Source: Verrucomicrobia bacterium UBA3841 (GTDB lineage Bacteria; Verrucomicrobiota; Kiritimatiellia; RFP12; UBA1067). Taken from it: a DNA stretch of 30,421 nt. Shown one piece after another: positions 16,670-29,018 of the stretch (positions within the stretch are counted from its first letter, which is position 1; every line of letters starts with the position of its first letter). Under the pieces are notes generated by a model. The model saw only the letters and a program-made list of their open reading frames with translations, ran no database searches and had not been told where the DNA came from. Both the position numbers and the translations under genes were made by a program. Location: positions 16,531 through 46,951 of the forward strand of contig DGHT01000015.1 in NCBI GenBank assembly GCA_002392765.1, written 5' to 3'.

Positions 16670-16728
16670 AGGCTGCACAGGAGATTTTGATTCTCTTGGT
16701 TCTGGTTCGATTCCAGACGGGACAACCA
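16655..16728 (+). tRNA. tRNA-Gln (anticodon UUG), CCA encoded
   Basis: Hand-folded cloverleaf. Acceptor: TGTCCCG / CGGGACA (U1:A72). D arm: GTGT-AGAGGCT-GCAC. Anticodon arm: GGAGA-TTTTGAT-TCTCT, with TTG at 16687-16689. Variable loop: 4 nt. T arm: TCTGG-TTCGATT-CCAGA. Discriminator A, then CCA. Confidence 0.85.
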
Positions 16729-16742
16729 TTTTCTCCCTCGCC

Positions 16743-16818
16743 GTTTCTTTTTTCTGTTGCCATTCGACGCGGGCTTATGATATAATCCTTGCGAACCTCA
16801 AATCAGGTTCAAAAACCC
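16743..16818 (+). repeat. Left copy of 76-bp perfect direct repeat
   Basis: gtttcttttttctgttgccattcgacgcgggcttatgatataatccttgcgaacctcaaatcaggttcaaaaaccc is identical base for base to 29776-29851. The flanking bases differ on both sides. Confidence 0.95.
16757..16786 (+). promoter_or_regulatory. Sigma70-like promoter inside the left repeat
   Basis: TTGCCA (16757-16762), 18-nt spacer, TATAAT (16781-16786). The geometry matches the pcnB promoter. It faces the M48 gene. Confidence 0.45.
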
Positions 16819-16887
16819 GAAATAAAATGATCAAGTCCAGAAGAACGGGAGGGCGGCCGTCCCCGGCCGTCGAAACGGATCGAGGAA

Positions 16888-17781
16888 ATGAACTACAGAG
16901 AATTCATACACCCGGAGGACGAGGCGGCATTGCGCAATCTTGAGGCCGTTCCTGGTTTCGATACTGTCGCGCGCTTCATCCTGGAACATTTCACGGAAGA
17001 CATGATGCATGGTCTCTATATGGCGCAGAATGTACGCCTGTCGCCGTCGCAACTTCCGGAAATATTCAATCTGTTGCCGCCGATATGCGGAAAATTCGAA
17101 ATTGAATTGCCGGAATTTTACCTCACGATGGATCCTAGACCCAACGCCTGGACGATTGGCGACAAGCGCAAGTTCATCGTATTGACGAGCGGACTTCTTG
17201 ACCACATCGCCGACAAGGATGAATTGCAGTCCATAATCGCGCATGAATGCGGACACATTGTATGCCGGCACGTGCTGTACAACACCATTGCAATGCTGCT
17301 GGTGAAATTTGGCGAGAGCCTGGGCTTTGGCCGGATTGTCATCGCACCTATTCTCCTGGCCATAAAATATTGGCAGCGGCGCAGCGAGCTTTCCGCAGAC
17401 AGGGCGAGCGCGGTGTACACCGGCGGTCACGAAGTTCCGTGCCGTGCCCTGTTGAGGATATGCGGCGGACCTGACAACTTGACGAAAAACATCAACCTTC
17501 CGGAATATGCCGAACAGGCAAAGGCGTACGATGCATTGGTTGCAAAGAGCAAGTGGAACAAACTTCTTCAAAACATGGCGATAATGGATGCAGACCATCC
17601 TTTTGCCGCTGTTCGCGTACGAGAATTGTTGTCCTGGGCGGGTAGCGAACAGTTTGCGAAACTAAAGCAGGCGATGTCTGCGGCGGAAGTCTTGCCAATG
17701 TGTCGGAAGTGCGGACGGCGCATTGCTGCCGATGCGAAATTCTGCAGGTACTGCGGCAATAATTTGAAAGGAGAGAAGTGA
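16888..17781 (+). CDS. M48-family zinc metallopeptidase with C-terminal zinc ribbon
   Basis: HECGH at 17242-17256 is preceded by NAWT..FIVLTSGLL and followed by ELSADR (third zinc ligand region), as in the M48/HtpX-like family. The C-terminus is CRKCGRRIAADAKFCRYCG (CxxC-x10-CxxC). Confidence 0.75.
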   Translation: MNYREFIHPEDEAALRNLEAVPGFDTVARFILEHFTEDMMHGLYMAQNVRLSPSQLPEIFNLLPPICGKFEIELPEFYLTMDPRPNAWTIGDKRKFIVLTSGLLDHIADKDELQSIIAHECGHIVCRHVLYNTIAMLLVKFGESLGFGRIVIAPILLAIKYWQRRSELSADRASAVYTGGHEVPCRALLRICGGPDNLTKNINLPEYAEQAKAYDALVAKSKWNKLLQNMAIMDADHPFAAVRVRELLSWAGSEQFAKLKQAMSAAEVLPMCRKCGRRIAADAKFCRYCGNNLKGEK

Positions 17782-18020
17782 TGGGTATTGTGGAGAAACT
17801 GGACGAACTTGTCCAGAAGTCGGCGTCGTTCCGGAAAATAATGGAGGACGGCGTGGTTGAAGACAGCGAAGTTGAAGAGCAGGCAAAGCGGGTTGAGACG
17901 CTGCTTGCGGAGCTGGAGCGGAGTCTTTCGCCCGGTGATTTCGAGCGGGTCGCTGAGTTTATGGCAGAACTTTCGGTGCTGCAGGTGATCCTGCGCTACA
18001 ATCAGATTGGAGGACGGTGA
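17781..18020 (+). CDS. Small acidic, predicted helical protein
   Basis: 79-aa ORF whose ATG overlaps the upstream TGA (TGATG). No motif recognised. Support comes from operon packing only. Confidence 0.4.
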   Translation: MGIVEKLDELVQKSASFRKIMEDGVVEDSEVEEQAKRVETLLAELERSLSPGDFERVAEFMAELSVLQVILRYNQIGGR

Positions 18021-18021
18021 C

Positions 18022-18522
18022 ATGGCTTTCGCTTCGCAAATGAAATTCAACGTTTCGCCGAGCTGCATTCCGCACATGGCAAAGGCATTGGAGAATGCGC
18101 TCAGGGAAGAGGGATATGATACGAAGTGCGACACATTGTTGAACGGCGACGTTGTCGTTTCGCTGACAAAAGGAGGAATGTTCAAGGCTGTTGTCGGAAT
18201 GAAAACCGCGCTCAAAGTGGAGCTTCGCGCCGACTGCGGAAGCGTCCTTGCCAAGACGGGCGTCGGCATCTGGGGCCATCAGATAGTGCCAACCGTAATC
18301 ATGCTCCTCTGGTTCTGGCCTGTACTCATTACGCAGATATGGGGTCTTGTGCAGCAAAGCCGTCTTGACGCGCACGTGATGGATATCCTGTCCAGGGCGG
18401 TGTCCGGCGGGATGGACGCAATAGACGTTCCATCAGAGGACGTTTCCTCTGCCCGCTTTTGTTCCGAGTGCGGCAAGCCTGTCCACGGCAATTTCTGCTC
18501 CAACTGCGGCGCGAAGGTGTAA
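18022..18522 (+). CDS. Single-pass membrane protein with C-terminal zinc ribbon
   Basis: ATG at 18022, 8 nt after GGAGG (18009-18013). One hydrophobic helix (IVPTVIMLLWFWPVLITQIWGLV). The C-terminus is CSECGKPVHGNFCSNCG. Confidence 0.55.
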   Translation: MAFASQMKFNVSPSCIPHMAKALENALREEGYDTKCDTLLNGDVVVSLTKGGMFKAVVGMKTALKVELRADCGSVLAKTGVGIWGHQIVPTVIMLLWFWPVLITQIWGLVQQSRLDAHVMDILSRAVSGGMDAIDVPSEDVSSARFCSECGKPVHGNFCSNCGAKV

Positions 18523-18532
18523 GGAGGGGTTG

Positions 18533-20800
18533 ATGAACGGAATGGTGTTTGCGTTCAAGACGGCCGTGTACCTTGCGTTCGGGGCTTTGACGACCGCTGC
18601 AATGCTGCTTGTTATGGTGCGGGCGGCTCGGAATAAGTATGCGATGATATTGATTGGCGTATTTCTCTTCATCGCAGGGTTTGTTACATATTTCTCTCCG
18701 GTTGAGTCTTGCGGCAAAGCAGGCGGCTCGCACGGGATTCCCGGCAGTGCGAATGACTGCGCCCGTCCTGTGTCTGCAAATACGAATGAATGTTTGCGCG
18801 CAAACGCATGTATGGCGGATTCGACGCAAAACACTGCGGACGACATCTCCGCAGGCGGATGCGTTTTCATTAAAAACGGTGCAAAATCACTGTCGTCGGT
18901 GAACAGGACTCTCTCGGCTTTTTATCCGTCAAGAGGGGAGTACGACGACACGCCTCCACCAGGCTGGGGCGGGCTGAAATACTGGCTGTTCCATCTCGCC
19001 GCGATTCTTTATATCTTGACACTTGCGGTTTCCTACTTCGGTATTGAGCTGATCAACGCGGCGTCGCTGTGGATGCGCAAACAGGCGAAAAAATGGCGAC
19101 TCGGCGCATTCGTGCGGCAATCGGAATTGAATGTGTTCTGGGATGCGGGGCAGGAATCGGAAGCATTGGCCGGACAGATGCCGTCGAAAAGCGTCGTTTT
19201 CGCAATCGCAGCCGGCGGACGGTCGTGGCGTAAACTTCAGGACGACGATGCGATATGCAGACTTGTTCGCAAGGGTGTGTTGTGGATTTCTTCCGATTCC
19301 AAAACCAATCGCAGACTGCTGACAATCGCAAGACGCCATTTCTTCATCGGTCCGGACTGCCATGAAAACGTTGTGAAGGCGCAGAAATATGTTCAGTTTT
19401 TGTATGACGAAAACATTCGGCATAAGGTCGATGTGTATGTTCGCGTGTGGTCGGATGCCGATGATGACGCCGTCTACGCATGGGCGGACAAATGGAACGG
19501 CAGGTTTTCGAAAGAAGGATTCCTGACGCAGATAAACGTTCTGCGCGAAGAGTCCATCGTCTCCAGGAGATTCCTTGTAGACCATCCAATGCTGGATTGT
19601 CCCGGAGTGAGAGTTTCCGATTGCCATACGGCTTCTGTCGCAGGCGAATTCAAGTTGCTTGTTGTCGGCTTTGGCGTTCAGGGAGAGCGGCTTATGGGCG
19701 ACATGATCTGCGATGCGCAATTCCCGGACGGGAAAGGCGGCGCGATTCCGGTTTCCGTCGATGTGGTTGACAGGGACGATGCGTCGTTTGGATGGTGGAA
19801 GGCGAACTGCAAAGAGGCGTGTGCGCGGTATGGAATCCATTTCGAGAACTGTGCCGCCGAAAGCGACCGCTTTTGGAGGTTTATTGAAAGCCGTTGTGTG
19901 TACAACCGGATTGTGATCAGCACTCATGACGACATCTTGAATCTCCGGTTGGCGAACGACATTGCCAATTACTATGCTAAACGGTATAGGATGGATTATG
20001 CGGTACTGCGCAATACAATCTTCGCGCGCGTTCGCAGACCTTCGCTGTCCAAGGTGCTTTGCGGCGGCATGGCGGACAGATATCAGCTGTTCGGCGATGT
20101 ACTGGACACGTATTCTCCGAAATGGCTGCTGAACGACTCGTGGGACGATGGAGCAAAATTCATCAACGGTGTCTGGAGCGCCGTGTACGATGAAGATTTC
20201 AGGAAGCTTCCCGACGGGGCGGACGTGATCAGATGGTACCTCGACAATATGGATCGCGGCGAGAAATACTGGGCGGCAAGGCCAATGCTCGACAAGGAAT
20301 CTTCCCGTGCGTCGTTCTTGCACATGAGAAACATTTTGCGTCTGATGGGATATGAGTGCAGGCGTGACATGCCAACGGATGAGAATGCAGGGATAAAACA
20401 GCTGGAGATACCGGAAAACCAGAAGGAGGAGTTGAAATGCGCGGCCGGGGACGCAAAGCGCCGGGAGAAGCTTGCCGAGTCGGAACATTTGCGATGGATG
20501 GCCTTCCATTTTGTCCGGGGCTGGGAGAAGTGGAGCCCGACCGAGGACGAGCTTGAGAAGCTCTCCAACGGCGGCAAGAACAGAGTCGAGCCTAACAGCA
20601 TGAAGAGTCGTGCTCGCATACACGCGAACCTTGAGGATTTTGCCAGGCTGGACGAGGTTGACGAGAAGTTCAACATGATTAACAGGAAGAATGGCAGGGA
20701 GTCTGTTAATTCGAAGGACAAGGACATAAACATCATATATGGCATCGAAGCCATTTACGCGACCGGCTTTCGCGTGTTCAAAAAGGCGTGTGACACGTGA
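18533..20800 (+). CDS. Membrane protein with Rossmann-like (TrkA-N/RCK-like) region and C-terminal RyR-like domain
   Basis: ATG 5 nt after GGAGG (18523-18527). About three N-terminal hydrophobic helices. VVGFGVQG glycine-rich motif (GFGVQG at 19667-19684). The C-terminus EHLRWMAFHFVRGWEKW...IHANLEDFARLDEVDEKF...DKD resembles the RyR-domain pattern of the next gene. Confidence 0.55.
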   Translation: MNGMVFAFKTAVYLAFGALTTAAMLLVMVRAARNKYAMILIGVFLFIAGFVTYFSPVESCGKAGGSHGIPGSANDCARPVSANTNECLRANACMADSTQNTADDISAGGCVFIKNGAKSLSSVNRTLSAFYPSRGEYDDTPPPGWGGLKYWLFHLAAILYILTLAVSYFGIELINAASLWMRKQAKKWRLGAFVRQSELNVFWDAGQESEALAGQMPSKSVVFAIAAGGRSWRKLQDDDAICRLVRKGVLWISSDSKTNRRLLTIARRHFFIGPDCHENVVKAQKYVQFLYDENIRHKVDVYVRVWSDADDDAVYAWADKWNGRFSKEGFLTQINVLREESIVSRRFLVDHPMLDCPGVRVSDCHTASVAGEFKLLVVGFGVQGERLMGDMICDAQFPDGKGGAIPVSVDVVDRDDASFGWWKANCKEACARYGIHFENCAAESDRFWRFIESRCVYNRIVISTHDDILNLRLANDIANYYAKRYRMDYAVLRNTIFARVRRPSLSKVLCGGMADRYQLFGDVLDTYSPKWLLNDSWDDGAKFINGVWSAVYDEDFRKLPDGADVIRWYLDNMDRGEKYWAARPMLDKESSRASFLHMRNILRLMGYECRRDMPTDENAGIKQLEIPENQKEELKCAAGDAKRREKLAESEHLRWMAFHFVRGWEKWSPTEDELEKLSNGGKNRVEPNSMKSRARIHANLEDFARLDEVDEKFNMINRKNGRESVNSKDKDINIIYGIEAIYATGFRVFKKACDT

Positions 20801-21084
20801 TGAACGATGGCTATATCCCCCGTCCTCTCGACACATCGGACATATCCCTGCCCGAATCGCTCGTTGCGCTAATCGAGGCGTTGGCGGAGAATGTGCATGA
20901 CACATGGGCCAAAGGGCGAATGGACGGGGGCTGGACATACGGTCCGGTCCGCGACGACGCGAAGAAACAGCACCCCGGCCTAGTCCCGTACGCCGATCTC
21001 CCCGAATCCGAAAAGGCATACGACCGCGCCACGGCAATTTCGACGCTGAAGTTCATCTGCAAGAAGGGGTATTCTATCAAATGA
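20800..21084 (+). CDS. Stand-alone RyR-domain protein
   Basis: 94 aa. LAENVHDTWAKGRMDGGWTYGPVRDDAKKQHPGLVPYADLPESEKAYDRAT matches my memory of the RyR (ryanodine receptor repeat) domain consensus. TGATG overlap upstream and ATGA overlap downstream. Confidence 0.7.
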   Translation: MNDGYIPRPLDTSDISLPESLVALIEALAENVHDTWAKGRMDGGWTYGPVRDDAKKQHPGLVPYADLPESEKAYDRATAISTLKFICKKGYSIK

Positions 21085-22415
21085 CAGCTAATGAAGAACA
21101 TAGATGCCTGACGGAGTTCAAGGAACATCATTGGGACATGCTGCTTGATTACATCGGGCAGGGGCGTGTAGTGCCTGTATTAGGTCCGGAACTTTTGGTC
21201 GCAAATGAGGCGGGGCGAAGTGTTCCGTTCTATCAGGAGGTCTCTAGACGACTTGCACATCACTTCGACATGCCTGAAATTGAATCTGAGACGGTTAATG
21301 ATTTCATGTCCCGTTTTTTGAAGGGGAACAATACGGTAAAGATGGCTCGAACCGGCTTAATTAAGGTGTTGAAGGAACTCGAAGATCAACCGCAACCGTC
21401 TCTTCGGAAACTGGCATCGATAAATGCCTTCAAACTCTACCTGACGACAACGCCGGATAATCTGCTTGCAAAGGCATTGACCGCTTGCGGGACAGATCCT
21501 GATGTGTACTTCTTTAGTACCAATTACAAGCGCCGGAGCGACTTGCCGGACAAAAAACTGCTAGGTCGCCAACGTTACATTTATCACCTCTATGGGAAAG
21601 CTGCGCCATGTTTTGAGTATGCCATTTCAGAGGACGATCGCCTCTTGTTTTCGTGCGAATGGATGGATTCGCAGGTTAAGCCGAGGAATCTGCTGTCTTA
21701 TTTGGCGGACAAGTATCTATTGATTCTCGGATGCGGGTATGAAAATTGGCAAGCGCGCTTTTTCCTGTTTGGACTTAAGGGGGCGGAGTTGTTCTCCAAC
21801 ATTTGGGATGCAAGCAGCCTGTTGGCGGATTCGCACACCCGAAATGATGCCCAGCTTGACCGATTCCTCTCAAGGTGCAGAGGGAATATCTATTACGAAG
21901 GCGGGGCGATCAAGTTCGTGGACGAACTTTGCAAACGATTGGAGAATACTCCTGCCGTACCGTCAGAGAGGGAGGGTGATACGTTTGAGAAGGGCAGCAT
22001 CTTTATCAGCTATGCCAGCGAGGACAAAGAAGCCGCGCTCAAGATCAAGCGGCGCTTGGAGTCGTTTAGTCTTCCTGTTTGGCTTGACAAGTTTAGATTG
22101 GAAAGCGGTTCTGACTACGATGCGCGCATAGAGAACAACATAAGGAACAGCGCGCTCTTTATCCCAATCCTTTCTCAAACGACTGCGCAGACGGCTGAAC
22201 CACGCTACTTCCGCAAGGAATGGAATATTGCCGTAGACCAGTCGCTTAGGAGCTCCCCGAAAATTCCTTTTATTCACCCCATCGCACTTGATGGCGTCGA
22301 ACCTTGCGACAACATTCCCGGTGCGATAAATAAGGTTCATTGGATACACGCGCCAGGAGGCGAACTGAATGAATGCGACATTGACCGGCTTATTGATCTG
22401 ATCGCACAACTGTAG
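21081..22415 (+). CDS. SIR2-like (SIR2_2-type) domain fused to a C-terminal TIR domain
   Basis: The N-terminal half has, in SIR2_2 order, VVPVLGPELL, YLTTTPDNLL, IYHLYGK and LLILGCGYENWQARFF. The C-terminal part (from 21993) is TIR-like: IFISYASEDKE...LPVWLDKFRLESGSDY...ALFIPILSQ...YFRKEW. The listed ORF start at 20904 is an out-of-frame extension into the RyR gene. Confidence 0.65.
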   Translation: MTANEEHRCLTEFKEHHWDMLLDYIGQGRVVPVLGPELLVANEAGRSVPFYQEVSRRLAHHFDMPEIESETVNDFMSRFLKGNNTVKMARTGLIKVLKELEDQPQPSLRKLASINAFKLYLTTTPDNLLAKALTACGTDPDVYFFSTNYKRRSDLPDKKLLGRQRYIYHLYGKAAPCFEYAISEDDRLLFSCEWMDSQVKPRNLLSYLADKYLLILGCGYENWQARFFLFGLKGAELFSNIWDASSLLADSHTRNDAQLDRFLSRCRGNIYYEGGAIKFVDELCKRLENTPAVPSEREGDTFEKGSIFISYASEDKEAALKIKRRLESFSLPVWLDKFRLESGSDYDARIENNIRNSALFIPILSQTTAQTAEPRYFRKEWNIAVDQSLRSSPKIPFIHPIALDGVEPCDNIPGAINKVHWIHAPGGELNECDIDRLIDLIAQL

Positions 22416-22426
22416 GAGGCGTGTAT

Positions 22427-25400
22427 ATGTCTAATAATGTTTTCAAGTCCGCGTGGCCAGGTCTGAATTCCTACGAAGAGGAAGATCAATCCCGTTTCTT
22501 CGGAAGGGACAGGGAGATTGATCTTTTGAAGGATGTCATCGGCACTGAATCGTTATGTACGATTTACGGTGTTTCCGGCGTCGGGAAGACATCCCTGTTG
22601 CAGGCTGGTGTTTTCCCAGAGTTGCGGGCGCGTTGTTTCCTGCCAGTGTATTTGCGTCTGGGACATGACAAAATTGACAGGCCGTATGCAGCCCAAATCA
22701 TTGAAGGATGCCTCGCGGCGGCGCGGAAGTCAAGACTTGAGGTGGTAGAGACATGTCAGGCGCTGGGGGCGTCCGAACATGAGACGCTATGGGAATGGTT
22801 TCACAGGCATGAATTTTTGAACGCCGTCAAGAAAGTCGTGCGCCCGGTTCTTGTCATCGACCAGTTCGAGGAAGTGTTCACACAGGGGAGTGACAAGGCT
22901 GAAAAAGAGTCTTGGTTTGATGAATTGACCGACCTGTGTTCCAACAGCGTTCCGGAATCTGTTGCAGATTTCATGTCTAATTCTGAAAATGATTTGGCTT
23001 TCCAAACAGAGAACCAGACCTGGCGCACGGTAATCTGTTTGAGAGAAGATTTTCTCTCGCGTCTAGAAGAGCGAACTGTTGAGTACCCGATATTCAAGCG
23101 GAACCGCATATCAATAGGGCCGTTGAGTGCCGAAAACGCAATAGAGGCGGTACTGAAAGGCGGAGATGGAATTGTCGATCTGACAGTCGCCGAATGTATC
23201 GTAAGGTATGTAGGAGGTTCGGCCGGGAAAATTGAGACCCCATTGCTTTCGTTGTTTTGTTCGCGTCTTGACATCCTTCGGCAAAGGGCTGGGTTGCCGA
23301 AGATCTCGCAGGAACTCGTCGAAGGAAACAAGGGTAAGATACTGAACAGTTTCTACGATGAATCGATGGGGCTTGTTTCGGCGTCATCCCGCGACTATCT
23401 TGAGGCGAATCTTCTGAACGAGGGGGGCTACCGGACGCCGGTACAACTCGATGAGGCGGAACGGAACGGTGTCCGGCCCGAAGAATGGAAAACACTTGAA
23501 AGAGTTCGCCTGTTACATGTGATTTCACGTGACAATGTACAGTGGTTGGAATTTAGTCATGACACCTTGGCGCCGGTTGCGAAAAGCGCACTTGAAAGGC
23601 GAAAAGCGGACAGGGAACGGCATGTGATGCAGGAGAAGTTGGCTCGTTCACGTCGTCGCACCAGAAGGCTCTTCTATGCATTTGTCGGCTTTGTCGGCTT
23701 TATATGCATCGCATCGTTTGCAACGTGGTTTCTGTTCTACAAGGAACATGTTGCGTACTATAGGGAATTTACCAAGAAATGGGGATGTCCAGTTGGGGTC
23801 GGTGCGCCGCTTACGATGGAACAGGTGCGCCACAGGGAATGCAGTTTTAGAATGAAGCGAAAGGGTCTGTATTCGCGGCGCGGCTTCCATTTTGAACCCA
23901 CCTATGCATATCGCGTCGAGGCTGTCAACGGTCGTCTGCAACCGACGACCGCACATGGGATGGTGACGTATTTGTGGGGAGGGGAAAATACAGCAAAACA
24001 GATGCAGAAAGAATTGGATAAGCGGAATTCAAATTATAAAGGGGACGCAAAAAGCGTTGGTAAAGACAACGCAAATGACAACCGCAAAAGTGGCTATTTG
24101 ACGTCAACGAAACTGGGAACAGTTTGCACATGGGAATTCATGTGTGACAAAGATGGTTTGCCGGAACGCGAAATCGGCTATGACGAAAAGGGCGAAATAG
24201 TATGGATGATGCCGTATGCCGTGGAAGCCACTGCAAATAGCGGGAAGCCAGAGTCTGCGATTGTGCATTTTACAATGAAAGACAGTTATTCGGTGAGACA
24301 GCGGCTGGACGATGCAGAATATGTAAGAATAACATACGACGATAAAAGCGGTTATGAAACAAAATACGAGTTCCTCGATAGGTATGGTAATGAAACCATA
24401 GGACCGGATGGTGTGTATGCGCGATCTCGAGAGTATTATTCTTCGGGGCGACTTAAGAAGCACGCCTCTTTGGATGTAGCAGGGAATTACATCATTGACC
24501 TGGCTGGGAATACAGGCCTGCGGTATGAGTATTCAGATGACAATCGGGAAATGCGCGTCACATCATTTGGTACAAACGAAGAGGCAAAGGCTTTAAACGA
24601 TGGATGGGTAAAATGTGTGCAGCGATATGACGAATGGGGAAATCTTGCGGAGCAAAGTTTCTACGATGCGACAAATCGGCTGGCTCTTTCCGATGGATGG
24701 CCGAGTGCCATCGTTGAAAGGGATTCCTATGGTCTCAAACAATCAGTGACATTGAGGGGGCAGATGTCCAATGGAGAAGATTTGGAACAATATGTTCTTT
24801 TTGATGTCGAGGGCAATGCGACAAACGTAGTGTGGCGCAATGCAAATGACAAAAGACCTAGCTGTAAGCCGGGAACTGAAGTACACATGATCTGCCGAGA
24901 GTATGCAGGCAAGGACAGGGCTTCGGTCGAGTGGTATTTAGATGTGAATAATGAGGCGATCACAAATGAATATGGCGTTGCCAGGGATGTGAGTATATAT
25001 GACACATCAACAGGCATGCTCGACACGAATAACCTTTACGCCCTGCCAGGACAAGGTGGAGCGCTAGGATACACCAATGTCCATCATTCATGTACGAGTT
25101 TTGATGGGTTCGGAAACCAGACCGGAGAAAGGTATTTTGATGCGGATGGGAATCCTACTGCGGATAACAACGGTGTATTTGAGTGTAAGTACTTGTGGCA
25201 GGGTGGCTATAAGGTTAGAGATGACTACCTTGCGCCGAATGGCAAAGGCGGGGTTGGGGGCGGCACAAACGTGCATCACATGGTGAAAATCTACAAGACA
25301 GTCAATGGTGCGAATCTTTGCGTGTGCGAGAAGTATTATGGTTGCGACGAAAGCCCGGTCGCGAACAATTACGGCGTAGCGAGAGTGGAATATACGTATG

Positions 25401-26440
25401 ACACAGCCGGCGTTGAAAGACGCCGAGATATGTATTCGGCGGATGCCGCCGGAGGAATCTGGGGGTGCACAAATCTATGCCATGTACTTGAGACGCGTGA
25501 TGAAAGGGGAAACACCGAGACGCAGCAGTGTTTTGACAGGGATGGGCGATATGTCGCATCTGACGGCACTGGGATGGTTGTTGGTCGTATGTCTTACTTT
25601 CCCGGTTCAGGCGATAATCCGCCCGTCATATCCATGCTTGATGGTTTCTCAATGCCGACGGTTGGCTTTGGCAATGACGGAAGAAGATGCAGGGTGACGC
25701 GATTCTACCGTAAAGACGGAGGAGAAAGAAGGACTGAAGAAGTAGATTTCAGCGGTAATCGCCATATTGAGGAAAAGAATACTGACGGTAATGTCACCTC
25801 CGAGGAGTTTGCGGGTGCGAAAGATGGTGGAATTGCCGATTTCAGTCTGCACGGAGTGGCTAAAATCAATCGGTGTTATGGTATAAAACCTGCCACTTTG
25901 TTTGAGCGTATATTCGGTGGGGGAGTCAAGCATAAGGACATTTGTGTGCGCGAAATGTATCTTGATTCATCGGGGAATCCGGTCGTCAATCGTTTTGGTA
26001 TCGCGGGATGGCGCAAGGATACGGATTACTCATCCGGCAAAATTGGGAATACCTTGTACTTTGATGTTTCAAGTAATGAAATGAAAGTTGCCGTAGGCAG
26101 GATTGTGACACCCAGCAGGGTTAGACCGCTCGGTATGGCTGACAAGAATGGAATCAAGGTTGGCGATATAATCTGTCACTACAACGATTATGATATATTG
26201 CGTTCCTCCTTGGATGTCATGGAACAAGTCGTTTCAACCGGGATGAACGATAATAAACGGATTGTCATCGGCAGAAGAAATAAGAATGGCCAATACGACA
26301 TAATCCCATATATATTGCCTCCCGGTGTACTTAATTTTAATCTGGTTGATGTGCCGATTAGCGAGGAGTATTATAAAGAACTTGAACACGACTATAAGGC
26401 GTATCAGGCGTATTGCGAAAAAGAAAGCGGGATGAAGTAA
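22427..26440 (+). CDS. STAND-class P-loop NTPase with TM helix, YD/RHS-like repeat region and PDZ-like C-terminus
   Basis: ATG 7 nt after AGGAGG (22414-22419). The lead-in WPGLNSYEEEDQSRFFGRDRE is followed by Walker A GVSGVGKTS (22568-22594) and Walker B VLVIDQFEEVF. RRRTRR precedes the hydrophobic helix LFYAFVGFVGFICIASFATWFLFY (23669-23740). About 24100-26070 carries repeated YD..GN / FD.DGNP.....GV motifs. The C-terminal part is GIKVGDII...GRRNKNGQYD...LVDV. Confidence 0.7.
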   Translation: MSNNVFKSAWPGLNSYEEEDQSRFFGRDREIDLLKDVIGTESLCTIYGVSGVGKTSLLQAGVFPELRARCFLPVYLRLGHDKIDRPYAAQIIEGCLAAARKSRLEVVETCQALGASEHETLWEWFHRHEFLNAVKKVVRPVLVIDQFEEVFTQGSDKAEKESWFDELTDLCSNSVPESVADFMSNSENDLAFQTENQTWRTVICLREDFLSRLEERTVEYPIFKRNRISIGPLSAENAIEAVLKGGDGIVDLTVAECIVRYVGGSAGKIETPLLSLFCSRLDILRQRAGLPKISQELVEGNKGKILNSFYDESMGLVSASSRDYLEANLLNEGGYRTPVQLDEAERNGVRPEEWKTLERVRLLHVISRDNVQWLEFSHDTLAPVAKSALERRKADRERHVMQEKLARSRRRTRRLFYAFVGFVGFICIASFATWFLFYKEHVAYYREFTKKWGCPVGVGAPLTMEQVRHRECSFRMKRKGLYSRRGFHFEPTYAYRVEAVNGRLQPTTAHGMVTYLWGGENTAKQMQKELDKRNSNYKGDAKSVGKDNANDNRKSGYLTSTKLGTVCTWEFMCDKDGLPEREIGYDEKGEIVWMMPYAVEATANSGKPESAIVHFTMKDSYSVRQRLDDAEYVRITYDDKSGYETKYEFLDRYGNETIGPDGVYARSREYYSSGRLKKHASLDVAGNYIIDLAGNTGLRYEYSDDNREMRVTSFGTNEEAKALNDGWVKCVQRYDEWGNLAEQSFYDATNRLALSDGWPSAIVERDSYGLKQSVTLRGQMSNGEDLEQYVLFDVEGNATNVVWRNANDKRPSCKPGTEVHMICREYAGKDRASVEWYLDVNNEAITNEYGVARDVSIYDTSTGMLDTNNLYALPGQGGALGYTNVHHSCTSFDGFGNQTGERYFDADGNPTADNNGVFECKYLWQGGYKVRDDYLAPNGKGGVGGGTNVHHMVKIYKTVNGANLCVCEKYYGCDESPVANNYGVARVEYTYDTAGVERRRDMYSADAAGGIWGCTNLCHVLETRDERGNTETQQCFDRDGRYVASDGTGMVVGRMSYFPGSGDNPPVISMLDGFSMPTVGFGNDGRRCRVTRFYRKDGGERRTEEVDFSGNRHIEEKNTDGNVTSEEFAGAKDGGIADFSLHGVAKINRCYGIKPATLFERIFGGGVKHKDICVREMYLDSSGNPVVNRFGIAGWRKDTDYSSGKIGNTLYFDVSSNEMKVAVGRIVTPSRVRPLGMADKNGIKVGDIICHYNDYDILRSSLDVMEQVVSTGMNDNKRIVIGRRNKNGQYDIIPYILPPGVLNFNLVDVPISEEYYKELEHDYKAYQAYCEKESGMK

Positions 26441-26508
26441 TGACATCTAAGCGAACGCTTACGGGTTTCCGCGGATTATATCCGGCATATTAGGTTGTTT
26501 TGCGACAG

Positions 26509-26542
26509 ATGCGGAGCATGCTCCGCATTATTATTGTGTTTT
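26509..26542 (+). terminator. Putative intrinsic terminator closing the 7-gene operon
   Basis: Perfect 20-bp palindrome atgcggagcatgctccgcat (26509-26528), immediately followed by tattattgtgtttt. Confidence 0.55.
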
Positions 26543-26565
26543 GATATGAATTATGGTATACTTGT

Positions 26566-27060
26566 GTGCAAAATGAGGATTTGAACATGATAGATCGTCC
26601 TTATGGGCTTAAGTGGCTTTGGCAATGGAAAGACCATGAGCCGATAAAAGTCGTCACCGGCATACGACGGTGCGGCAAATCGACATTGCTTTCAATGTTT
26701 CAGGAGCAATTGCGCGAAGACGGCATCAACGCCGATCAGATTGTCGCAATCAACTTTGAGCATCCGGATTTCATGGAACTTGACAATTCCGCCGCCGTAT
26801 GGAAATACTTGAAGCCGAAAATTGCCCAGGGACGAAATGCATACGTTTTCCTTGATGAAATTCAGCGTGTAAGAGACTTTGAAAAGGTGGTTGACGGACT
26901 TTTGTGCTGCCTGGCGTTGATGTCCTGTTGCGCTTGATGCCGTGGTACGATACATCTTCGACAACATCGGGAATCTCACGAGCATGCGGAATATCGCGAC
27001 AGTCCTGAAGTCTGAAGGCGTTTCAATTGATGCTTCTTCTGTTGAGGACTATGTCTCCGC
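26566..27060 (+). pseudogene. Decayed AAA_14 / DUF4143-family ATPase gene
   Basis: The N-terminal fragment has Walker A GIRRCGKST and Walker B VFLDEIQ, then a premature stop at 26935-26937. A second fragment in another frame (from 26942) reads VRYIFDNIGNLTSMRNIATVLK..SVEDYVSAL, like the DUF4143 part. Intact family members are, from memory, roughly 400 aa. Confidence 0.6.
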
Positions 27061-27063
27061 CCT

Positions 27064-27112
27064 GTGCGGCACGGGCGGTCGGCGGCGAATGGCGTTGCGA
27101 TCGTGTATAGTC
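27064..27112 (+). pseudogene. 49-nt fragment of a histidine phosphatase gene 5' end
   Basis: Ungapped alignment to 29067-29115 matches at 42 of 49 nt, including 27 of the first 28. It translates to VRHGRSAANGVAIVYS against VRHGRSAANEDPTVYS in the intact gene. There is no start codon in frame. Confidence 0.7.
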
Positions 27113-27212
27113 TACGGTATTGGCGATGTAGTTTAAGAATTTTGTGAAATTTAAGTTGGAAATTGCAAGATAAATGTGGCGATAAAACTGTACCATCTAT
27201 TGGAGTTGCGAA

Positions 27213-29018
27213 ATGAACAAGTCACAACAATACGATATCTTCATTTCATACCGCCGCGAGGGCGGATATGACACGGCGCAGCTGCTGTACGACCGGTTGA
27301 CGCAGATGGGCTATCGCGTGTCGTTCGACCTGGAGACGCTGCGCGGCGGGAAGTTCAACACGCAGCTCTACCGGCGCATCGAGCAATGCTCCGACATGCT
27401 TGTCATCATGAGCAGGGATTCTCTTAACCTTCGCGAGAATCACGAGGACGACTGGTTCCGGCTGGAGATCGCCCACGCGCTGAAGCACAAGAAGAACATC
27501 GTCCCCGTGTTCCTGCGTGACTTCAAGTTCCCTCAGAAAGGGGAGTTGCCAGACGATATAGCCGACCTGGTGGACTATCAGGGCGTCACGGCGTCGCAGG
27601 AACATTTCGACAGTGTGCTGAATCGGATATGCAGGAACTTCAAGGCGAAGCCCCATCGGCGCAAATGGCCGGTAGTCGCCGCCATTGCCGCAGCTCTTCT
27701 TGTCGGCGCGGGGATTGGAGTCTGGTTGAAGGCAGACAAGATTTTCCCGTATCCTTTTACCAGAGAGGCAAGACAGGAGGTTGATGCATACTATGGAACT
27801 GTGTTGCGGATTGGGGCCGCCTACAATGAATTTCTGTCCGCAAAGATGGAACTTCTTGACAAGGTCAGTTTGAGTATAGAAGCTGAAGACAAGGCGCCAT
27901 ATCAAGCCGCCGTACCAGAGTTCTTGCATCGACGCGGAATGGCGAGAAAAAATCTCGACGCCGCTGCTGAGGCGTTGGAAAGAGTTGTCAAGGAGAACCC
28001 CGGATTGCGTGTGGATCGCGCATACATACCGAATTTCCTGGAGGGGGTACGACAGGAATTCGGCGATGCGGATGAGTGGGCTGCTCTTTTCAGCCTCCCG
28101 TGTGATCCTGATTACGTATGCTCAAAGGCAAACAGGATTAGGATTGTCATGCTCAATCGCAAGGAGATTGAGATATATGCCGACGTGTTTGCCTATGGCG
28201 TCATGTTCCTTTTCGACATGATTTCGCCGGAAGCGCTCGCTGACTTTAGGGAAGTCGCGGCAAAACAGTGGACGATGTTGAAGCGGTTCAGAGGTGAATG
28301 GCTGTCAGATCAAAAGCAGATTGAACAGAATGGCGAGGCTTCGCTGAACCAGCTTCAAGAAGTGGTCGAGGAGCGTGCGCAGATAATAGGAAATACGGCA
28401 CAGGCCCTGGAGCAGGCTAAGCGCAACACCAGGCAAATGAGAATGGACGCGGGAATGTCGCCGGAACAAGCCGAGAGAATCGGCAAGAAGGAGGAGGAGC
28501 TTGAGAATTTGAAGGCGCAGAGGAAAGAGACGCAAAAAGCGATAGCGGATGCACGAGAGCGGCTCCGCAAGAAGTTCGCGCCGAAGGATGATGACGACAT
28601 TGGAATACTCTGGGGCAAGGCGTTGCGGTTCATGTCAGTCAATATGCCGGAGGAGGCGAAGCGGTGTGCAGATGTTTTGCGTCGGCGCAATACGCCGGAT
28701 TTCCCGCCATCGGCGATAGACACCGCGGAGGCGATCATCCTGTCTAAAGGCGCGTTGCCGTTTGTGGGTGGTGTCTTGGTTTGTTCATACGAACCGCCGG
28801 CTACGTCTCATGCGATATTCAAAATCGGAGACGTCGTCACGGAAGTGAACGAGAAACCATGTCTGTACTTCGAGGATTACAGCAGCAAGGCCGGCAACAC
28901 CTACACGATATACCGTCGAAACGCGAAGGGCCAGTTTGACAAGCTGACGGCAACCATGCCTGAAGGCCAGCCGCGTGTGGCTCTGGTGGATTTGGCGGAG
29001 AAGGGCGACCGCAAGTAG
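27213..29018 (+). CDS. TIR domain - TM helix - coiled-coil region - PDZ-like C-terminal domain protein
   Basis: GGAG lies 7 nt upstream of the ATG. TIR start YDIFISYRREGGYD...VIMSRDSL...DDWFRLEIAHAL...IVPVFL. KAKPHRRK precedes the helix WPVVAAIAAALLVGAGIGVWL (27666-27728). A charged heptad-like stretch runs about 28300-28580. The C-terminus is IFKIGDVVTEVN...YRRNAKGQFD...LVDL. Confidence 0.75.
   Translation: MNKSQQYDIFISYRREGGYDTAQLLYDRLTQMGYRVSFDLETLRGGKFNTQLYRRIEQCSDMLVIMSRDSLNLRENHEDDWFRLEIAHALKHKKNIVPVFLRDFKFPQKGELPDDIADLVDYQGVTASQEHFDSVLNRICRNFKAKPHRRKWPVVAAIAAALLVGAGIGVWLKADKIFPYPFTREARQEVDAYYGTVLRIGAAYNEFLSAKMELLDKVSLSIEAEDKAPYQAAVPEFLHRRGMARKNLDAAAEALERVVKENPGLRVDRAYIPNFLEGVRQEFGDADEWAALFSLPCDPDYVCSKANRIRIVMLNRKEIEIYADVFAYGVMFLFDMISPEALADFREVAAKQWTMLKRFRGEWLSDQKQIEQNGEASLNQLQEVVEERAQIIGNTAQALEQAKRNTRQMRMDAGMSPEQAERIGKKEEELENLKAQRKETQKAIADARERLRKKFAPKDDDDIGILWGKALRFMSVNMPEEAKRCADVLRRRNTPDFPPSAIDTAEAIILSKGALPFVGGVLVCSYEPPATSHAIFKIGDVVTEVNEKPCLYFEDYSSKAGNTYTIYRRNAKGQFDKLTATMPEGQPRVALVDLAEKGDRK

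What the first reader, a model, noticed from the sequence alone, without database searches (positions are those of the whole stretch)
16888..26542. Seven-gene coupled operon joining RyR domains, a SIR2-like-TIR fusion and a membrane-spanning STAND NTPase: candidate undescribed immune system
Seen: seven + strand ORFs are packed with the following junctions.
- TGATG at 17779-17783.
- A 1-nt gap at 18020/18022.
- A 10-nt gap with GGAGG at 18522/18533.
- TGATG at 20798-20802.
- ATGA at 21081-21084.
- An 11-nt gap with AGGAGG at 22415/22427.
The operon is closed by a palindrome plus T-run at 26509-26542. Established: TIR and SIR2 domains are NAD+-cleaving or signal-making effectors in Thoeris, DSR and Avs5-type systems. 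STAND NTPases are the sensor-switches of Avs/bNACHT systems. Inference: this is a split system in which the effector (SIR2-TIR) is a separate polypeptide from an effector-less STAND protein. Two RyR-domain proteins and an M48/Zn-ribbon trio may act as additional signalling or membrane components. I do not recognise this combination as any named system.
Basis: partly seen in the sequence, partly recalled or inferred. Interest (0 to 1): 0.92.

Follow-up and report, generated by a model that had tools for sequence, protein, structure and literature searches.

The report
RyR-domain and TIR signalling operon
A gut bacterium carries a tightly packed operon in which proteins with the "ryanodine-receptor" nucleotide-binding domain sit next to TIR enzymes that make cyclic ADP-ribose-type signals; this pairing recurs in three bacterial phyla and suggests an undescribed Thoeris-like immune or signalling pathway.

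Summary
The seven-gene operon is real and every junction is as described. HMMs support M48+Zn-ribbon (g1), RyR (g5), TIR (g6) and nSTAND1 (g7). g6's N-terminal domain is a true SIR2_2/ThsA homologue, but the ThsA catalytic Asn and His are not conserved. g4 (755 aa) matches no Pfam, NCBIfam or PADLOC model. It has three TM helices, a TrkA-like tandem Rossmann (RCK-like) region, and a C-terminal RyR-like domain that keeps the four ligand residues of phage RyDEP.

PADLOC names no system. The locus is modular:
- Module A (M48 / 79 aa / Zn-ribbon-TM / g4 / RyR) recurs in Kiritimatiellae. TIR proteins follow it almost every time.
- Module B (SIR2-TIR + nSTAND1) also occurs alone.

RyR-TIR adjacency also appears in Firmicutes, with a true K+ channel-RyR protein. 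In Bacteroidales it appears with a C39 peptidase-RyR fusion and the same M48 trio.

Two 2026 preprints show that phage RyR domains bind or cleave TIR-made 2'/3'cADPR. My best reading is therefore that TIR makes an NAD-derived signal, the RyR pocket (g4 + g5) senses it, and the output is at the membrane or through a protease. The STAND protein is the likely trigger. None of this has been tested biochemically. Verdict: new variant of a known kind (Thoeris-like logic, new receptor), high interest.

The parts
16757..16786 (+). Promoter-like site (TTGCCA, 18 nt, TG-TATAAT) upstream of g1
   Evidence: Best sigma-70-type match in 16500-27300, 11 of 12 positions with an extended -10 TG. This is a consensus match only.
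16888..17781 (+). g1: M48-family zinc metalloprotease with a C-terminal zinc ribbon (297 aa)
   Evidence: Pfam Peptidase_M48 2.9e-20 and Zn_Ribbon_1 2.5e-6. The HECGH and ELSAD motifs are visible in the translation. Orthologues of 81% identity (L005) down to Bacteroidales (4e-93) sit in the same cassette.
17781..18020 (+). g2: 79-aa protein with no family match; always sits between the M48 gene and the Zn-ribbon-TM gene
   Evidence: No Pfam, NCBIfam or PADLOC family above noise. 92% identical in L005. A homologue lies at the same position in Bacteroidales L108 (2e-13).
18022..18522 (+). g3: 166-aa protein with one TM helix (88-106) and a C-terminal zinc ribbon
   Evidence: Weak DZR/Zn_Ribbon_1 hits. 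TM scan. The family has 635 clusters, including Kiritimatiellae and Bacteroidales members. Conserved position in the cassette.
18533..20800 (+). g4: 755-aa membrane protein. It has 3 TM helices, a Cys-rich outer loop and an invariant F/Y-P-S-R-G loop. Its cytoplasmic part is a TrkA-like tandem Rossmann (RCK-like) region carrying GFGxQG. The C-terminal domain is RyR-like (H652, W655, H697, D731).
   Evidence: - No Pfam hit in any of 37 family members.
- AF2 model pLDDT 85.9.
- Foldseek top hits are the TrkA gating ring, 4g65/4j9v, at 5e-6.
- For the C-terminal domain, hhalign against the g5 family gives E 1e-4. A profile against PDB sequences puts an RyR1 chimera first (0.011). The Foldseek top 17 hits are the B. 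thetaiotaomicron RyR-domain protein (prob up to 0.98).
- The RyDEP ligand residues are conserved.
- The family has 273 clusters at E<=1e-30.
20800..21084 (+). g5: 94-aa stand-alone RyR-domain protein (H33, W36, H58, D75)
   Evidence: Pfam RyR 3.5e-34, full length. 33.7% identical to phage DyoEdafos gp78 (RyDEP), E 2e-8. All four RyDEP ligand/catalytic residues are conserved. It is adjacent to or fused with g4-like genes in 19 of 33 non-redundant loci.
21081..22415 (+). g6: SIR2-like (about residues 1-290) plus TIR (about 300-430) fusion, 444 aa; catalytic-position Glu E380
   Evidence: TIR_2 3.4e-19; SIR2_2 only 0.0045. Homologues carry PF13289+PF13676. An N-terminal profile hits ThsA 8bto/6lhx at 3e-7, but ThsA N112 aligns to Thr and H152 to Phe/Tyr. 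A TIR profile hits PdTIR, AbTIR, SPARTA TIR and SARM1. E380/W381 are invariant.
22427..26440 (+). g7: nSTAND1 NTPase (1-410, Walker A K54), one TM helix (419-437), then an outer domain of about 900 aa with RHS/YD-like repeats and a weak PDZ-like region
   Evidence: nSTAND1 2.7e-30 and AAA_16. TM scan with a positive-inside flank. Weak PDZ. The repeats are shared with TIR-TM proteins of other g4 loci, and with an L043 protein that has a Pfam RHS_repeat hit. It is paired with SIR2-TIR in L039-41, L104 and L105.
26508..26542 (+). Terminator-like hairpin (9-bp stem) with a weak T-rich tail
   Evidence: Best + strand terminator-like site in the region. Sequence checked.
27213..29018 (+). g9 (outside the reported span): TIR + one TM helix (154-172) + outer domain of about 430 aa. 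Probably belongs to the same signalling locus.
   Evidence: TIR_2 7.8e-15. TM scan. Close orthologues of its outer domain follow the g4-RyR cassette in L029/L031 (8e-218), L049, L054, L059, L066 and L071.

Best explanation
The locus is a composite TIR-based signalling (probably defence) system built from two modules.

**Module B (g6 + g7) is the input.** g7 is a membrane-spanning nSTAND1 NTPase whose RHS-like/PDZ-like domain faces outward. It senses a cue at the envelope, switches on through its P-loop (K54), and activates the separate SIR2-like-TIR protein g6. The g6 TIR domain (E380) converts NAD+ into a cyclic-ADP-ribose-type nucleotide. Other TIR-TM proteins such as g9 may feed the same signal.

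**Module A (g1-g5) is the receiver and output.** The signal binds an RyR-type pocket formed by the C-terminal RyR-like repeat of g4 together with the single-repeat RyR protein g5. This would be a two-repeat module like animal RyR Repeat12 or the RyDEP homodimer. Binding is passed through g4's TrkA-like tandem Rossmann ring to its membrane domain. The result would be altered ion flux or membrane integrity. The M48 protease trio (g1-g3) acts as a further output or as a reset.

**Shown here:** operon structure, domain identities, conservation of the RyDEP ligand residues, and cross-phylum RyR-TIR synteny.

**Inferred:** that the TIR product is a cADPR isomer, that g4/g5 bind it, that g4+g5 heterodimerise, the direction of signalling, the membrane output, and the anti-phage role.
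For: 1. **Operon structure.** The seven genes are tightly coupled.
2. **Published RyR biochemistry.** Phage RyR-domain proteins bind or cleave the TIR products 2'cADPR and 3'cADPR (RyDEP: PMC13232231, read; 'RyR Tad': 10.64898/2026.06.04.730250).
3. **Ligand residues conserved.** g5 is 34% identical to RyDEP. RyDEP H75/W78/H100/D117 correspond to g5 H33/W36/H58/D75. They also correspond to g4 H652/W655/H697/D731; three of these are invariant and D731 is near-invariant in the alignments.
4. **g4 C-terminus is RyR-like.** Evidence comes from hhalign, a PDB sequence profile and Foldseek. A gammaproteobacterial MAG protein (L088) that carries the same EHLRWMAFH motif scores Pfam Ion_trans_2+TrkA_N+RyR.
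5. **TIR neighbours.** 23 of 33 non-redundant g4-like loci with at least 3 kb of flank on both sides have a TIR ORF within 5 kb. TIR density falls from 1.67 per 10 kb (under 2 kb away) to 0.28 per 10 kb (8-10 kb away). In most Kiritimatiellae-type loci with enough downstream flank, the gene directly after RyR is a TIR protein; L004 is one exception.
6. **Other phyla.** In Firmicutes the arrangement is a g4-like protein, a TVGYG K+ channel-RyR protein and a TIR-beta-propeller protein. In Bacteroidales it is a C39 peptidase-RyR fusion, the M48 trio and several TIR proteins, with no g4.
7. **RyR behaves like a sensor domain.** It is fused or adjacent to varied outputs: a K+ channel, g4, a C39 peptidase and a nitroreductase-like domain. 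A direct g4-g5 fusion also exists (L064).
8. **g4 cytoplasmic core.** It resembles the nucleotide-gated TrkA ring.
9. **Module B and shared sensors.** The SIR2-TIR + nSTAND1 pair is conserved down to 33% identity. g7's outer repeats are fused directly to TIR in other g4 loci, which links sensor, TIR and RyR cassette.
10. **Genomic setting.** The locus sits right after tRNA-Gln where GC drops from 58% to 50%. Its chromosomal neighbours differ between genomes. No g4 relative was found in IMG/VR.
Against: - There is no biochemical or phage-challenge evidence for any component.
- g4 has no Pfam RyR hit, and the statistical support for its RyR domain is modest (hhalign probability 58%; Foldseek E about 0.2-1).
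- g4's membrane region shows no sequence similarity to K+-channel pores (hhalign 0.5%), so an ion-conducting output is conjecture.
- Module B occurs without module A, so the two may be independent neighbours.
- About a third of g4-like loci show no TIR within reach, and some show no RyR gene.
- These Kiritimatiellae genomes are rich in TIR proteins, which inflates chance adjacency.
- Extracytoplasmic sensor domains are unusual for anti-phage STANDs and fit physiological signalling equally well.
- The g6 SIR2 domain lacks the canonical catalytic residues and its role is unexplained.
- TIR and ORF calls in the related loci used a home-made HMM and a simple ORF finder.
Confidence: 0.45

Rival explanations
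1. Two unrelated systems happen to be joined in one transcript within a variable island. Module B (SIR2-TIR + nSTAND1) would be a self-contained Avs-like abortive-infection pair in which g6 is the killing effector (an NAD+ depleter) and makes no diffusible signal. Module A (M48 trio, g4, RyR) would do something else.
For: The SIR2-TIR + nSTAND1 (or STAND-like/WD40) pair occurs without any g1-g5 gene in L039-41, L104 and L042. Module A occurs with quite different TIR partners and no SIR2-TIR or STAND in L005, L029, L034 and L036. The g9-type TIR-TM protein, not g6, is the recurrent TIR partner of module A, so g6-g7 may be an insertion between g5 and g9.
Against: The g5/g6 genes overlap by ATGA here and in L037/L046. 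The two modules co-occur in at least three diverged lineages: the window, L037/L046 and L105. Module A is hardly ever found without a TIR gene next to it, so it appears to need one. g7's sensor repeats are shared with TIR proteins of other module-A loci.
Confidence: 0.25
2. The RyR proteins are host-encoded brakes rather than receptors. Like phage RyDEP or RyR Tad, g5 (and g4) would sequester or hydrolyse cADPR-type signals to stop self-activation or to end the response. The real effector would lie elsewhere, for example the SIR2-like domain, the M48 protease, or NAD+ depletion itself.
For: g5 keeps both residues of the RyDEP glycosidase dyad (H33, D75) and is a small soluble protein like the phage sponges (PMC13232231).
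Against: RyR is covalently fused to output-type domains: a K+ channel with TVGYG, a C39 peptidase, and g4. That is the pattern of a sensor domain, not of a free sponge. The g4-g5 fusion in L064 points to a two-repeat receptor module.
Confidence: 0.15
3. This is not an immune system but a physiological envelope-sensing pathway of gut anaerobes. Toll-like receptors (outer domain, one TM helix, cytoplasmic TIR) and a TM-STAND would report external cues through an NAD-derived messenger to RyR/RCK-regulated ion transport and proteolysis.
For: g7, g9 and most partner TIR proteins are single-pass membrane proteins with large outer domains. g1-g3 and g5 are strongly conserved between genomes (76-92% identity), unlike typical fast-evolving defence genes. 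RCK domains normally regulate K+ homeostasis (GsuK, PMC3510474 abstract).
Against: The locus lies in a low-GC stretch right after a tRNA and occupies different chromosomal positions in different genomes. Its neighbours include typical conflict-system genes: patatin, caspase-like C14, TIR-STING, AAA_14/DUF4143 and Lon_C. g4 itself diverges fast (34% identity where its neighbours are about 80%). Phyletic distribution is patchy.
Confidence: 0.15

Closest known systems
Thoeris (ThsB TIR + ThsA effector; types I and II)
   Same: A TIR protein with the catalytic Glu is encoded next to a protein carrying a small-nucleotide-binding sensor domain joined to an output. In type II Thoeris the output is a membrane domain. 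Multiple TIR genes per locus also occur in Thoeris. The g6 N-terminal domain is homologous to the ThsA SIR2 domain.
   Different: There is no SLOG or Macro sensor and no PADLOC Thoeris hit. The proposed sensor is an RyR domain. The SIR2-like domain is fused to the TIR, not to the sensor, and lacks ThsA's N112/H152 equivalents. A STAND NTPase and an M48 protease trio are added. Many of the TIR proteins are transmembrane receptors.
Phage RyR-domain anti-Thoeris proteins (RyDEP of phage DyoEdafos; RyR Tad gp68 of Pectobacterium phage CB1)
   Same: g5 is a member of the same Pfam family (PF02026). It is 34% identical to RyDEP and conserves all four ligand/catalytic residues.
   Different: Here the RyR proteins are cellular, not viral (no IMG/VR relatives of g4). 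They are co-transcribed with TIR genes and linked or fused to membrane, channel or peptidase domains. This suggests signal reception rather than immune evasion.
Avs / bNACHT-type STAND anti-phage NTPases (including SIR2-STAND Avs5)
   Same: g7 is a STAND P-loop NTPase (nSTAND1) with a large C-terminal sensor region. It is genetically coupled to SIR2/TIR-type NAD+-processing domains.
   Different: The effector is on a separate polypeptide. The sensor region lies outside the cytoplasmic membrane behind a TM helix and consists of RHS-like repeats plus a PDZ-like region. There are no PADLOC Avs/NLR model hits.
RCK-gated K+ channels and TrkA gating rings (TrkA-TrkH, MthK, GsuK)
   Same: g4's cytoplasmic core superposes on TrkA's tandem Rossmann ring and carries a GxGxxG...D nucleotide-binding signature. 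Related proteins in other loci are bona fide Ion_trans_2+TrkA_N channels with a C-terminal RyR domain (L088; the Firmicutes L010 channel scores Ion_trans_2+RyR only).
   Different: g4 has no recognisable pore domain or TVGYG filter. Instead it has an invariant F/YPSRG loop. It also carries an RyR-like domain that is unknown in characterised RCK channels.
Animal ryanodine receptor Repeat12 domain and the cADPR-RyR Ca2+-release axis
   Same: It uses the same small helical fold and the same adenine-nucleotide pocket residues. The domain is attached to an ion-channel-type protein, and a cADPR-type ligand is implicated.
   Different: The bacterial proteins are unrelated to RyR outside this domain. 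A single repeat per polypeptide would need a partner (g5) to mimic the tandem repeat. No ligand has been tested.

Membership tests
Thoeris | TIR-domain protein (ThsB-like) with the conserved catalytic glutamate | tested here: met
   g6 TIR_2 3.4e-19. E380 is invariant in 31 homologues and aligns with the W/Y-x-x-x-E position of other TIRs and with the FFKKEW motif of PdTIR. However, the Pfam ThsB_TIR model did not hit g6.
Thoeris | ThsA-type effector with a SLOG (type I) or Macro (type II) signal-binding domain | tested here: not met
   No SLOG, Macro or ThsA model hit for any of the seven proteins in Pfam, NCBIfam or PADLOC.
Thoeris | TIR product (gcADPR / His-ADPR) activates the effector | not testable with these tools
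   Needs an NAD+ turnover assay with LC-MS and binding assays.
RyR domain family (PF02026; RyDEP / RyR Tad) | Match to the Pfam RyR model above the gathering score | tested here: met
   g5: 117.3 bits against a cut-off of 27.4, covering 90 of 91 model positions.
RyR domain family (PF02026; RyDEP / RyR Tad) | The same, for the g4 C-terminal domain | tested here: inconclusive
   No Pfam hit in 37 family members. In its favour: hhalign against the g5 family gives E 1e-4 (prob 58%). The best PDB sequence hit is an RyR1 chimera at 0.011. The Foldseek top 17 hits are all the B. thetaiotaomicron RyR-domain protein (prob 0.85-0.98, TM 0.45-0.59). A bridging protein, L088, scores 27.1 bits on Pfam RyR.
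RyR domain family (PF02026; RyDEP / RyR Tad) | Ligand-pocket residues equivalent to RyDEP H75, W78, H100 and D117 | tested here: met
   g5 H33/W36/H58/D75. g4 H652/W655/H697 are invariant, and D731 is invariant or near-invariant.
RyR domain family (PF02026; RyDEP / RyR Tad) | Binds or hydrolyses 2'cADPR / 3'cADPR | not testable with these tools
   Biochemistry is required.
STAND NTPases of Avs / bNACHT type | STAND P-loop NTPase module with an intact Walker A motif | tested here: met
   nSTAND1 2.7e-30 and AAA_16 8.9e-8. GVSGVGKTS with K54.
STAND NTPases of Avs / bNACHT type | Effector domain fused to the same polypeptide, and a match to the Avs/NLR defence models | tested here: not met
   The NTPase starts at residue about 10, with no N-terminal effector. 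PADLOC gives zero families for g7.
SIR2 NADase effectors (ThsA, DSR, Avs5 SIR2) | SIR2_2-type fold homology | tested here: met
   g6 alone scores only 0.0045, below the cut-off. Most homologues below about 40% identity carry PF13289. The family profile hits ThsA 8bto/6lhx at 2.8e-7 and 5.1e-7.
SIR2 NADase effectors (ThsA, DSR, Avs5 SIR2) | Catalytic Asn (ThsA N112 in TTNYD) and His (ThsA H152 in KMHG) | tested here: not met
   N112 aligns to Thr (the family motif is TTTxD). H152 aligns to Phe/Tyr, and the family's conserved His (H169) sits two residues upstream. GPE replaces the GAG loop.
RCK-regulated K+ channels | Tandem RCK/KTN Rossmann domains | tested here: met
   Foldseek hits to TrkA 4g65_B at 4.7e-6 and 4j9v_A at 8.7e-6 over about 415 columns. 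GFGxQG...D motif.
RCK-regulated K+ channels | Ion_trans_2 pore with a TVGYG-type filter | tested here: not met
   No Pfam hit, no filter motif, and hhalign against neighbouring channel pores gives prob 0.5%. The feature is present in the Firmicutes partner proteins (L010 type) and in the gammaproteobacterial L088 protein.
Peptidase family M48 | HExxH motif plus a downstream Glu, and a Pfam match | tested here: met
   Peptidase_M48 73 bits against a cut-off of 20.3. HECGH and ELSAD are present in the translation.

The most novel reading that the evidence does not exclude
The RyR domain is a general bacterial receptor for TIR-made NAD-derived messengers. It is coupled to interchangeable outputs: a K+ channel, the g4 RCK-membrane protein, a C39 peptidase and M48 proteolysis. 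This operon would then be a new Thoeris-like immune class in which a cADPR-type signal gates an RyR-domain membrane protein. That would be a prokaryotic antecedent of the animal cADPR-to-ryanodine-receptor axis. It would also explain why phages carry RyR-domain sponges and glycosidases: they would be captured host receptors.
Probability: 0.35. Interest if true: 0.92.

Novelty: new variant of a known kind. Interest (0 to 1): 0.8.

Why it matters
If correct, three things follow.

1. It adds a new receptor/effector class to TIR-nucleotide immunity: an RyR domain, with channel-like and protease outputs. It would also give phage RyDEP and RyR Tad a cellular counterpart and a likely origin.

2. The long-debated link between cADPR and ryanodine receptors becomes testable in a simple bacterial system. 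Here an RyR domain, an ion-channel-type protein and the cADPR-making enzyme are encoded side by side.

3. It points to bacterial single-pass receptors with a cytoplasmic TIR domain or STAND NTPase and a large outer domain. This is a Toll-like topology that would feed such a pathway.

It also defines g4 as a member of a sizeable family with no Pfam model (273 clusters at E<=1e-30). SIR2-TIR + nSTAND1 emerges as a conserved two-gene module that I did not find described in the searchable literature.

Tried and rejected
- Pfam at E up to 10, NCBIfam and PADLOC gave nothing for g4 or g2.
- A whole-chain Foldseek search of g4 against BFVD viral structures found nothing meaningful.
- A scan of IMG/VR for g4 relatives found none, so a phage origin for g4 is not supported.
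- I tested whether g4's helix/F-P-S-R-G loop/TM region is a diverged K+-channel pore. hhalign against the TVGYG pores of neighbouring channels gave 0.5% probability. I therefore dropped 'g4 is a pore-loop channel' as a claim and keep it only as conjecture.
- I looked for a second copy of the tRNA-Gln 3' end to delimit an integrated island. None lies within the window.
- Rfam found only the tRNA and no riboswitch in the leader.
- Literature searches for 'SIR2-TIR', 'TIR-SIR2', and RyR together with TIR/gene neighbourhood found no description of this arrangement. The library lacks most subscription journals, so absence there is weak evidence.
- The PDZ call in g7 stays below threshold. A PDB sequence search of the g7 outer domain gave only that weak PDZ hint.
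- I considered filing the locus as Thoeris or Avs and rejected both, because defining features were tested and not met.

Full report
**1. Observation**

The window holds seven + strand genes between 16888 and 26440. They are TGATG overlaps at 17779 and 20798, an ATGA overlap at 21081, a 1-nt gap at 18020/18022, and 10- and 11-nt gaps carrying GGAGG-type ribosome-binding sites before 18533 and 22427.

Gene calls on three independent public contigs that carry the identical proteins give the same seven genes. The strongest promoter-like site of the region, TTGCCA-18-TG-TATAAT, lies at 16757-16786. The strongest + strand terminator-like hairpin lies at 26508-26529 and has only a weak T tail.

**2. 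Setting**

A tRNA-Gln gene (16655-16728) lies immediately upstream. GC content drops from about 58% to about 50% at that point. The left flank is housekeeping: PcnB/CCA-type nucleotidyltransferase, MlaEFD, IlvD, PheT, an aminotransferase and a GHMP kinase.

Downstream lie a truncated AAA_14 ATPase fragment, a TIR-TM protein (g9, 27213-29018) and a His_Phos_1 phosphatase. No second copy of the tRNA 3' end occurs in the window. The closest relatives of the proteins come from Kiritimatiellae MAGs of gut and rumen, so the source is probably such an organism. This is an inference.

**3. Domain identities**

- **g1** is an M48 metalloprotease with an intact HExxH motif and a Zn ribbon.
- **g2** (79 aa) matches nothing.
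- **g3** has one TM helix and a C-terminal Zn ribbon.
- **g5** is a full-length RyR domain (Pfam 3.5e-34).
- **g7** is an nSTAND1 NTPase (2.7e-30). It has a single TM helix at 419-437 preceded by an Arg-rich stretch. This places about 900 residues outside the membrane. That outer region has only a weak PDZ signal. Its repeats are shared with an L043 protein that has a Pfam RHS_repeat match.
- **g6** has a clear TIR_2 domain (3.4e-19).

The g6 N-terminal half scores only 0.0045 on SIR2_2. Even so, most of its 282 homologue clusters below about 40% identity carry PF13289+PF13676. A family profile also hits the ThsA SIR2 domain at about 3e-7. In that alignment ThsA's catalytic N112 faces a Thr and H152 faces Phe/Tyr. 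The family's conserved His sits two residues upstream. The fold call is therefore right, but a ThsA-like NADase activity is doubtful.

The g6 TIR profile matches enzymatic bacterial TIRs (PdTIR, AbTIR), SPARTA TIR and SARM1. PADLOC reports only generic TIR-domain hits for g6 and nothing for the other proteins.

**4. The unknown protein g4**

No Pfam, NCBIfam or PADLOC model matches g4 or any of 36 relatives. A word-indexed search finds 42 clusters. A full profile search finds 273 clusters at E<=1e-30 and 2828 at E<=1e-3. It is thus a real, sizeable and unnamed family.

AlphaFold2 with the family alignment gives a confident model (pLDDT 85.9, pTM 0.83). Its features, in order:
- two N-terminal TM helices;
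- a disordered Cys-rich loop;
- a helix followed by the invariant F/Y-P-S-R-G motif;
- a third TM helix;
- two Rossmann domains, the second carrying GFGxQG...D;
- a helical linker;
- a compact C-terminal domain.

The best PDB matches are the TrkA gating ring, 4g65 and 4j9v, at about 5e-6 over about 415 columns.

Several independent lines, each modest, say the C-terminal domain is RyR-like:
- hhalign against the g5 family gives E 1e-4 at 58% probability.
- The top hit of a profile search of all PDB sequences is an RyR1 repeat chimera (0.011).
- A separate AF2 model of the domain (pLDDT 88.5) has as its top 17 Foldseek hits the B. thetaiotaomicron 'putative ryanodine receptor'. RyR1/2/3 Repeat12 domains follow.
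- A protein from a gammaproteobacterial MAG (L088) carries g4's EHLRWMAFH motif. It scores Ion_trans_2 + TrkA_N + RyR in Pfam.

I tested whether g4's membrane region is a diverged K+ pore and found no support (hhalign 0.5%).

**5. Link to published biochemistry**

Two 2026 preprints show that phage RyR-domain proteins bind (RyR Tad) or hydrolyse (RyDEP) the TIR products 2'cADPR and 3'cADPR. In RyDEP the ligand contacts are H75, W78, H100 and D117.

g5 hits 244 phage records. Among them is DyoEdafos gp78, which is RyDEP itself, at 33.7% identity and E 2e-8. An alignment shows all four residues conserved in g5 (H33, W36, H58, D75). In g4 the equivalents are H652, W655, H697 and D731, which are invariant or near-invariant across the family.

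**6. Synteny**

Using the g4 family as a probe, I collected 25 genome loci and 61 metagenome loci, plus contigs found by exact protein look-up. In Kiritimatiellae-type loci the order M48 / 79 aa / Zn-ribbon-TM / g4 / RyR recurs. g1, g2, g3 and g5 are 76-92% identical to the window's proteins, whereas g4 is only 34% identical (L005).

In most loci with enough downstream flank, the gene after RyR encodes a TIR protein of variable architecture:
- TIR-TPR;
- TIR-STAND;
- TIR + TM + large outer domain;
- SIR2-TIR.

L004 is one exception.

After clustering at 90% identity, I examined the g4-like loci that have at least 3 kb on both sides:
- 23 of 33 have a TIR ORF within 5 kb, and 20 of 33 within 2 kb.
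- TIR density falls steadily with distance, from 1.67 to 0.28 per 10 kb.
- 19 of 33 have an RyR ORF within 100 nt or fused.
- L064 is a direct g4-RyR fusion.

In Firmicutes MAGs the arrangement is a g4-like protein, then a bona fide K+ channel (TVGYGD; Pfam Ion_trans_2 + RyR). In many of these loci a TIR-beta-propeller or other TIR protein follows.

Probing with g3 instead led to Bacteroidales loci. These carry a Peptidase_C39_2-RyR-Zn-ribbon fusion, the M48 trio (g1, g2 and g3 homologues at 4e-93, 2e-13 and 5e-47) and three TIR proteins, but no g4. RyR-TIR linkage therefore holds in three phyla. RyR is attached to interchangeable output-type domains, which is how sensor domains behave in nucleotide-signalling defence systems.

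**7. Modularity**

The SIR2-TIR + nSTAND1 pair occurs without g1-g5 in another Kiritimatiellae lineage (45% identity; L039-41). It also occurs in a distant environmental genome (33% identity, overlapping genes; L104). In L042 the partner is a WD40-rich protein.

Both modules occur together again in L037/L046, with the same ATGA overlap between RyR and SIR2-TIR. They also occur together in L105, where a Lon_C protein is inserted.

g7's outer repeats are found fused directly to TIR + TM in other g4 loci (L005, L058, L073). Close orthologues of g9 follow the g4-RyR cassette in several loci. So g9, which lies outside the reported span, probably belongs to the same signalling locus.

**8. Interpretation**

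The best-supported reading is a Thoeris-like logic with a new receptor. TIR domains (g6, activated by the TM-STAND g7; possibly also g9) make an NAD-derived messenger. An RyR pocket formed by g4's C-terminal repeat and g5 senses it. The signal is relayed through g4's TrkA-like ring to its membrane domain and/or to the M48 protease trio.

The shown parts are the operon structure, the domain identities, the residue conservation and the cross-phylum synteny. The messenger, the binding, the heterodimer, the membrane output and the anti-phage role are all inferred.

I put confidence in this reading at 0.45. Rival readings, with my confidence in each:
- Two independent systems joined in an island (0.25).
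- RyR proteins as host brakes, that is sponges or glycosidases (0.15).
- A non-immune envelope-sensing pathway (0.15).

The main weaknesses are the absence of any experiment and the modest statistics for g4's RyR call. In addition, g4 lacks a recognisable pore, module B exists on its own, these genomes are rich in TIR genes, and I relied on a home-made TIR HMM and a simple ORF caller for the related loci.

**9. Comparison and novelty**

The locus fails defining tests for Thoeris: there is no SLOG/Macro ThsA and no model hits. It also fails those for Avs-type STANDs: there is no fused effector and no model hits. It is therefore not a member of either family, although it plausibly works like Thoeris.

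The published RyR work concerns phage proteins only. I found no description of cellular RyR-TIR operons, of SIR2-TIR + nSTAND1 pairs, or of the g4 family in the searchable literature. That library is incomplete.

I rate the finding a new variant of a known kind, with interest 0.8. The most novel reading not excluded is that RyR is a general bacterial receptor for TIR messengers and a prokaryotic precedent for the animal cADPR-RyR axis. I give that a probability of about 0.35.

Noticed in passing
window 16655-16728: A tRNA-Gln(TTG) gene lies directly upstream of the operon. GC falls from about 58% to about 50% from here to the window's end, which suggests an island boundary. No repeat of the tRNA 3' end is present in the window.
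   Followed up: partly
window 26566-26937 (and 26942-27136): The AAA_14 ATPase ORF is only 123 aa. Full-length relatives in related loci are about 405-450 aa and carry DUF4143. This is probably a truncated or frameshifted remnant between the operon and the next TIR gene.
   Followed up: partly
window 29043-29702: A His_Phos_1 (phosphoglycerate-mutase-like phosphatase) gene follows the TIR-TM gene g9, and a second His_Phos_1 gene follows on the source contig. It could process phosphorylated ADP-ribose derivatives. Its link to the system was not tested.
   Followed up: no
window 18929-21037 (-) and 6818-9568 (-): Very long antisense ORFs (702 and 916 aa) overlap g4/g5 and ilvD/the next gene. No gene caller on the public contigs reports the 18929-21037 ORF, and both are most likely artefacts of GC-rich coding sequence.
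   Followed up: partly
L108/L109 7640-18564 (Bacteroidales MAG): The locus holds a Peptidase_C39_2-RyR-Zn-ribbon fusion protein next to the M48 / 85 aa / Zn-ribbon trio. It also holds a TIR protein, a TIR+TM protein and a Transglutaminase-Pkinase-TIR protein, with no g4. This looks like an RyR-regulated protease variant of the same theme.
   Followed up: partly
L006 5178-15305 (Kiritimatiellia MAG): A Cupin-NUDIX hydrolase gene sits between a TIR-NPHP3_N(STAND)-TPR gene and the RyR / g4-like pair, and a second TIR-STAND gene follows. NUDIX enzymes act on ADP-ribose-type nucleotides.
   Followed up: no
L033 1-22043: A g4 homologue is embedded in a cluster of at least nine TIR-domain proteins of varied architecture. 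Examples are TIR-FGE-sulfatase, Sel1-TIR, TIR-protein kinase, CAP12-type TIR-prokaryotic STING and TIR-Fe-hydrogenase-like. This is an extreme expansion of TIR fusion proteins.
   Followed up: no
L074 11651-12427: An RyR domain is fused to a nitroreductase-like C-terminal region (258 aa), 2.8 kb from a g4-like gene. This is another possible RyR-output fusion.
   Followed up: no
L036 6407-17790: In this variant a patatin phospholipase replaces g2/g3 between M48 and g4. A caspase-like Peptidase_C14 protein lies downstream among three TIR proteins. These are typical conflict-system effectors.
   Followed up: no
L107 (phage DyoEdafos 49365-50413): RyDEP (gp78) is flanked by ribose-phosphate pyrophosphokinase and nicotinamide phosphoribosyltransferase genes, as the preprint describes. 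This is a useful positive control for the RyR alignment.
   Followed up: yes
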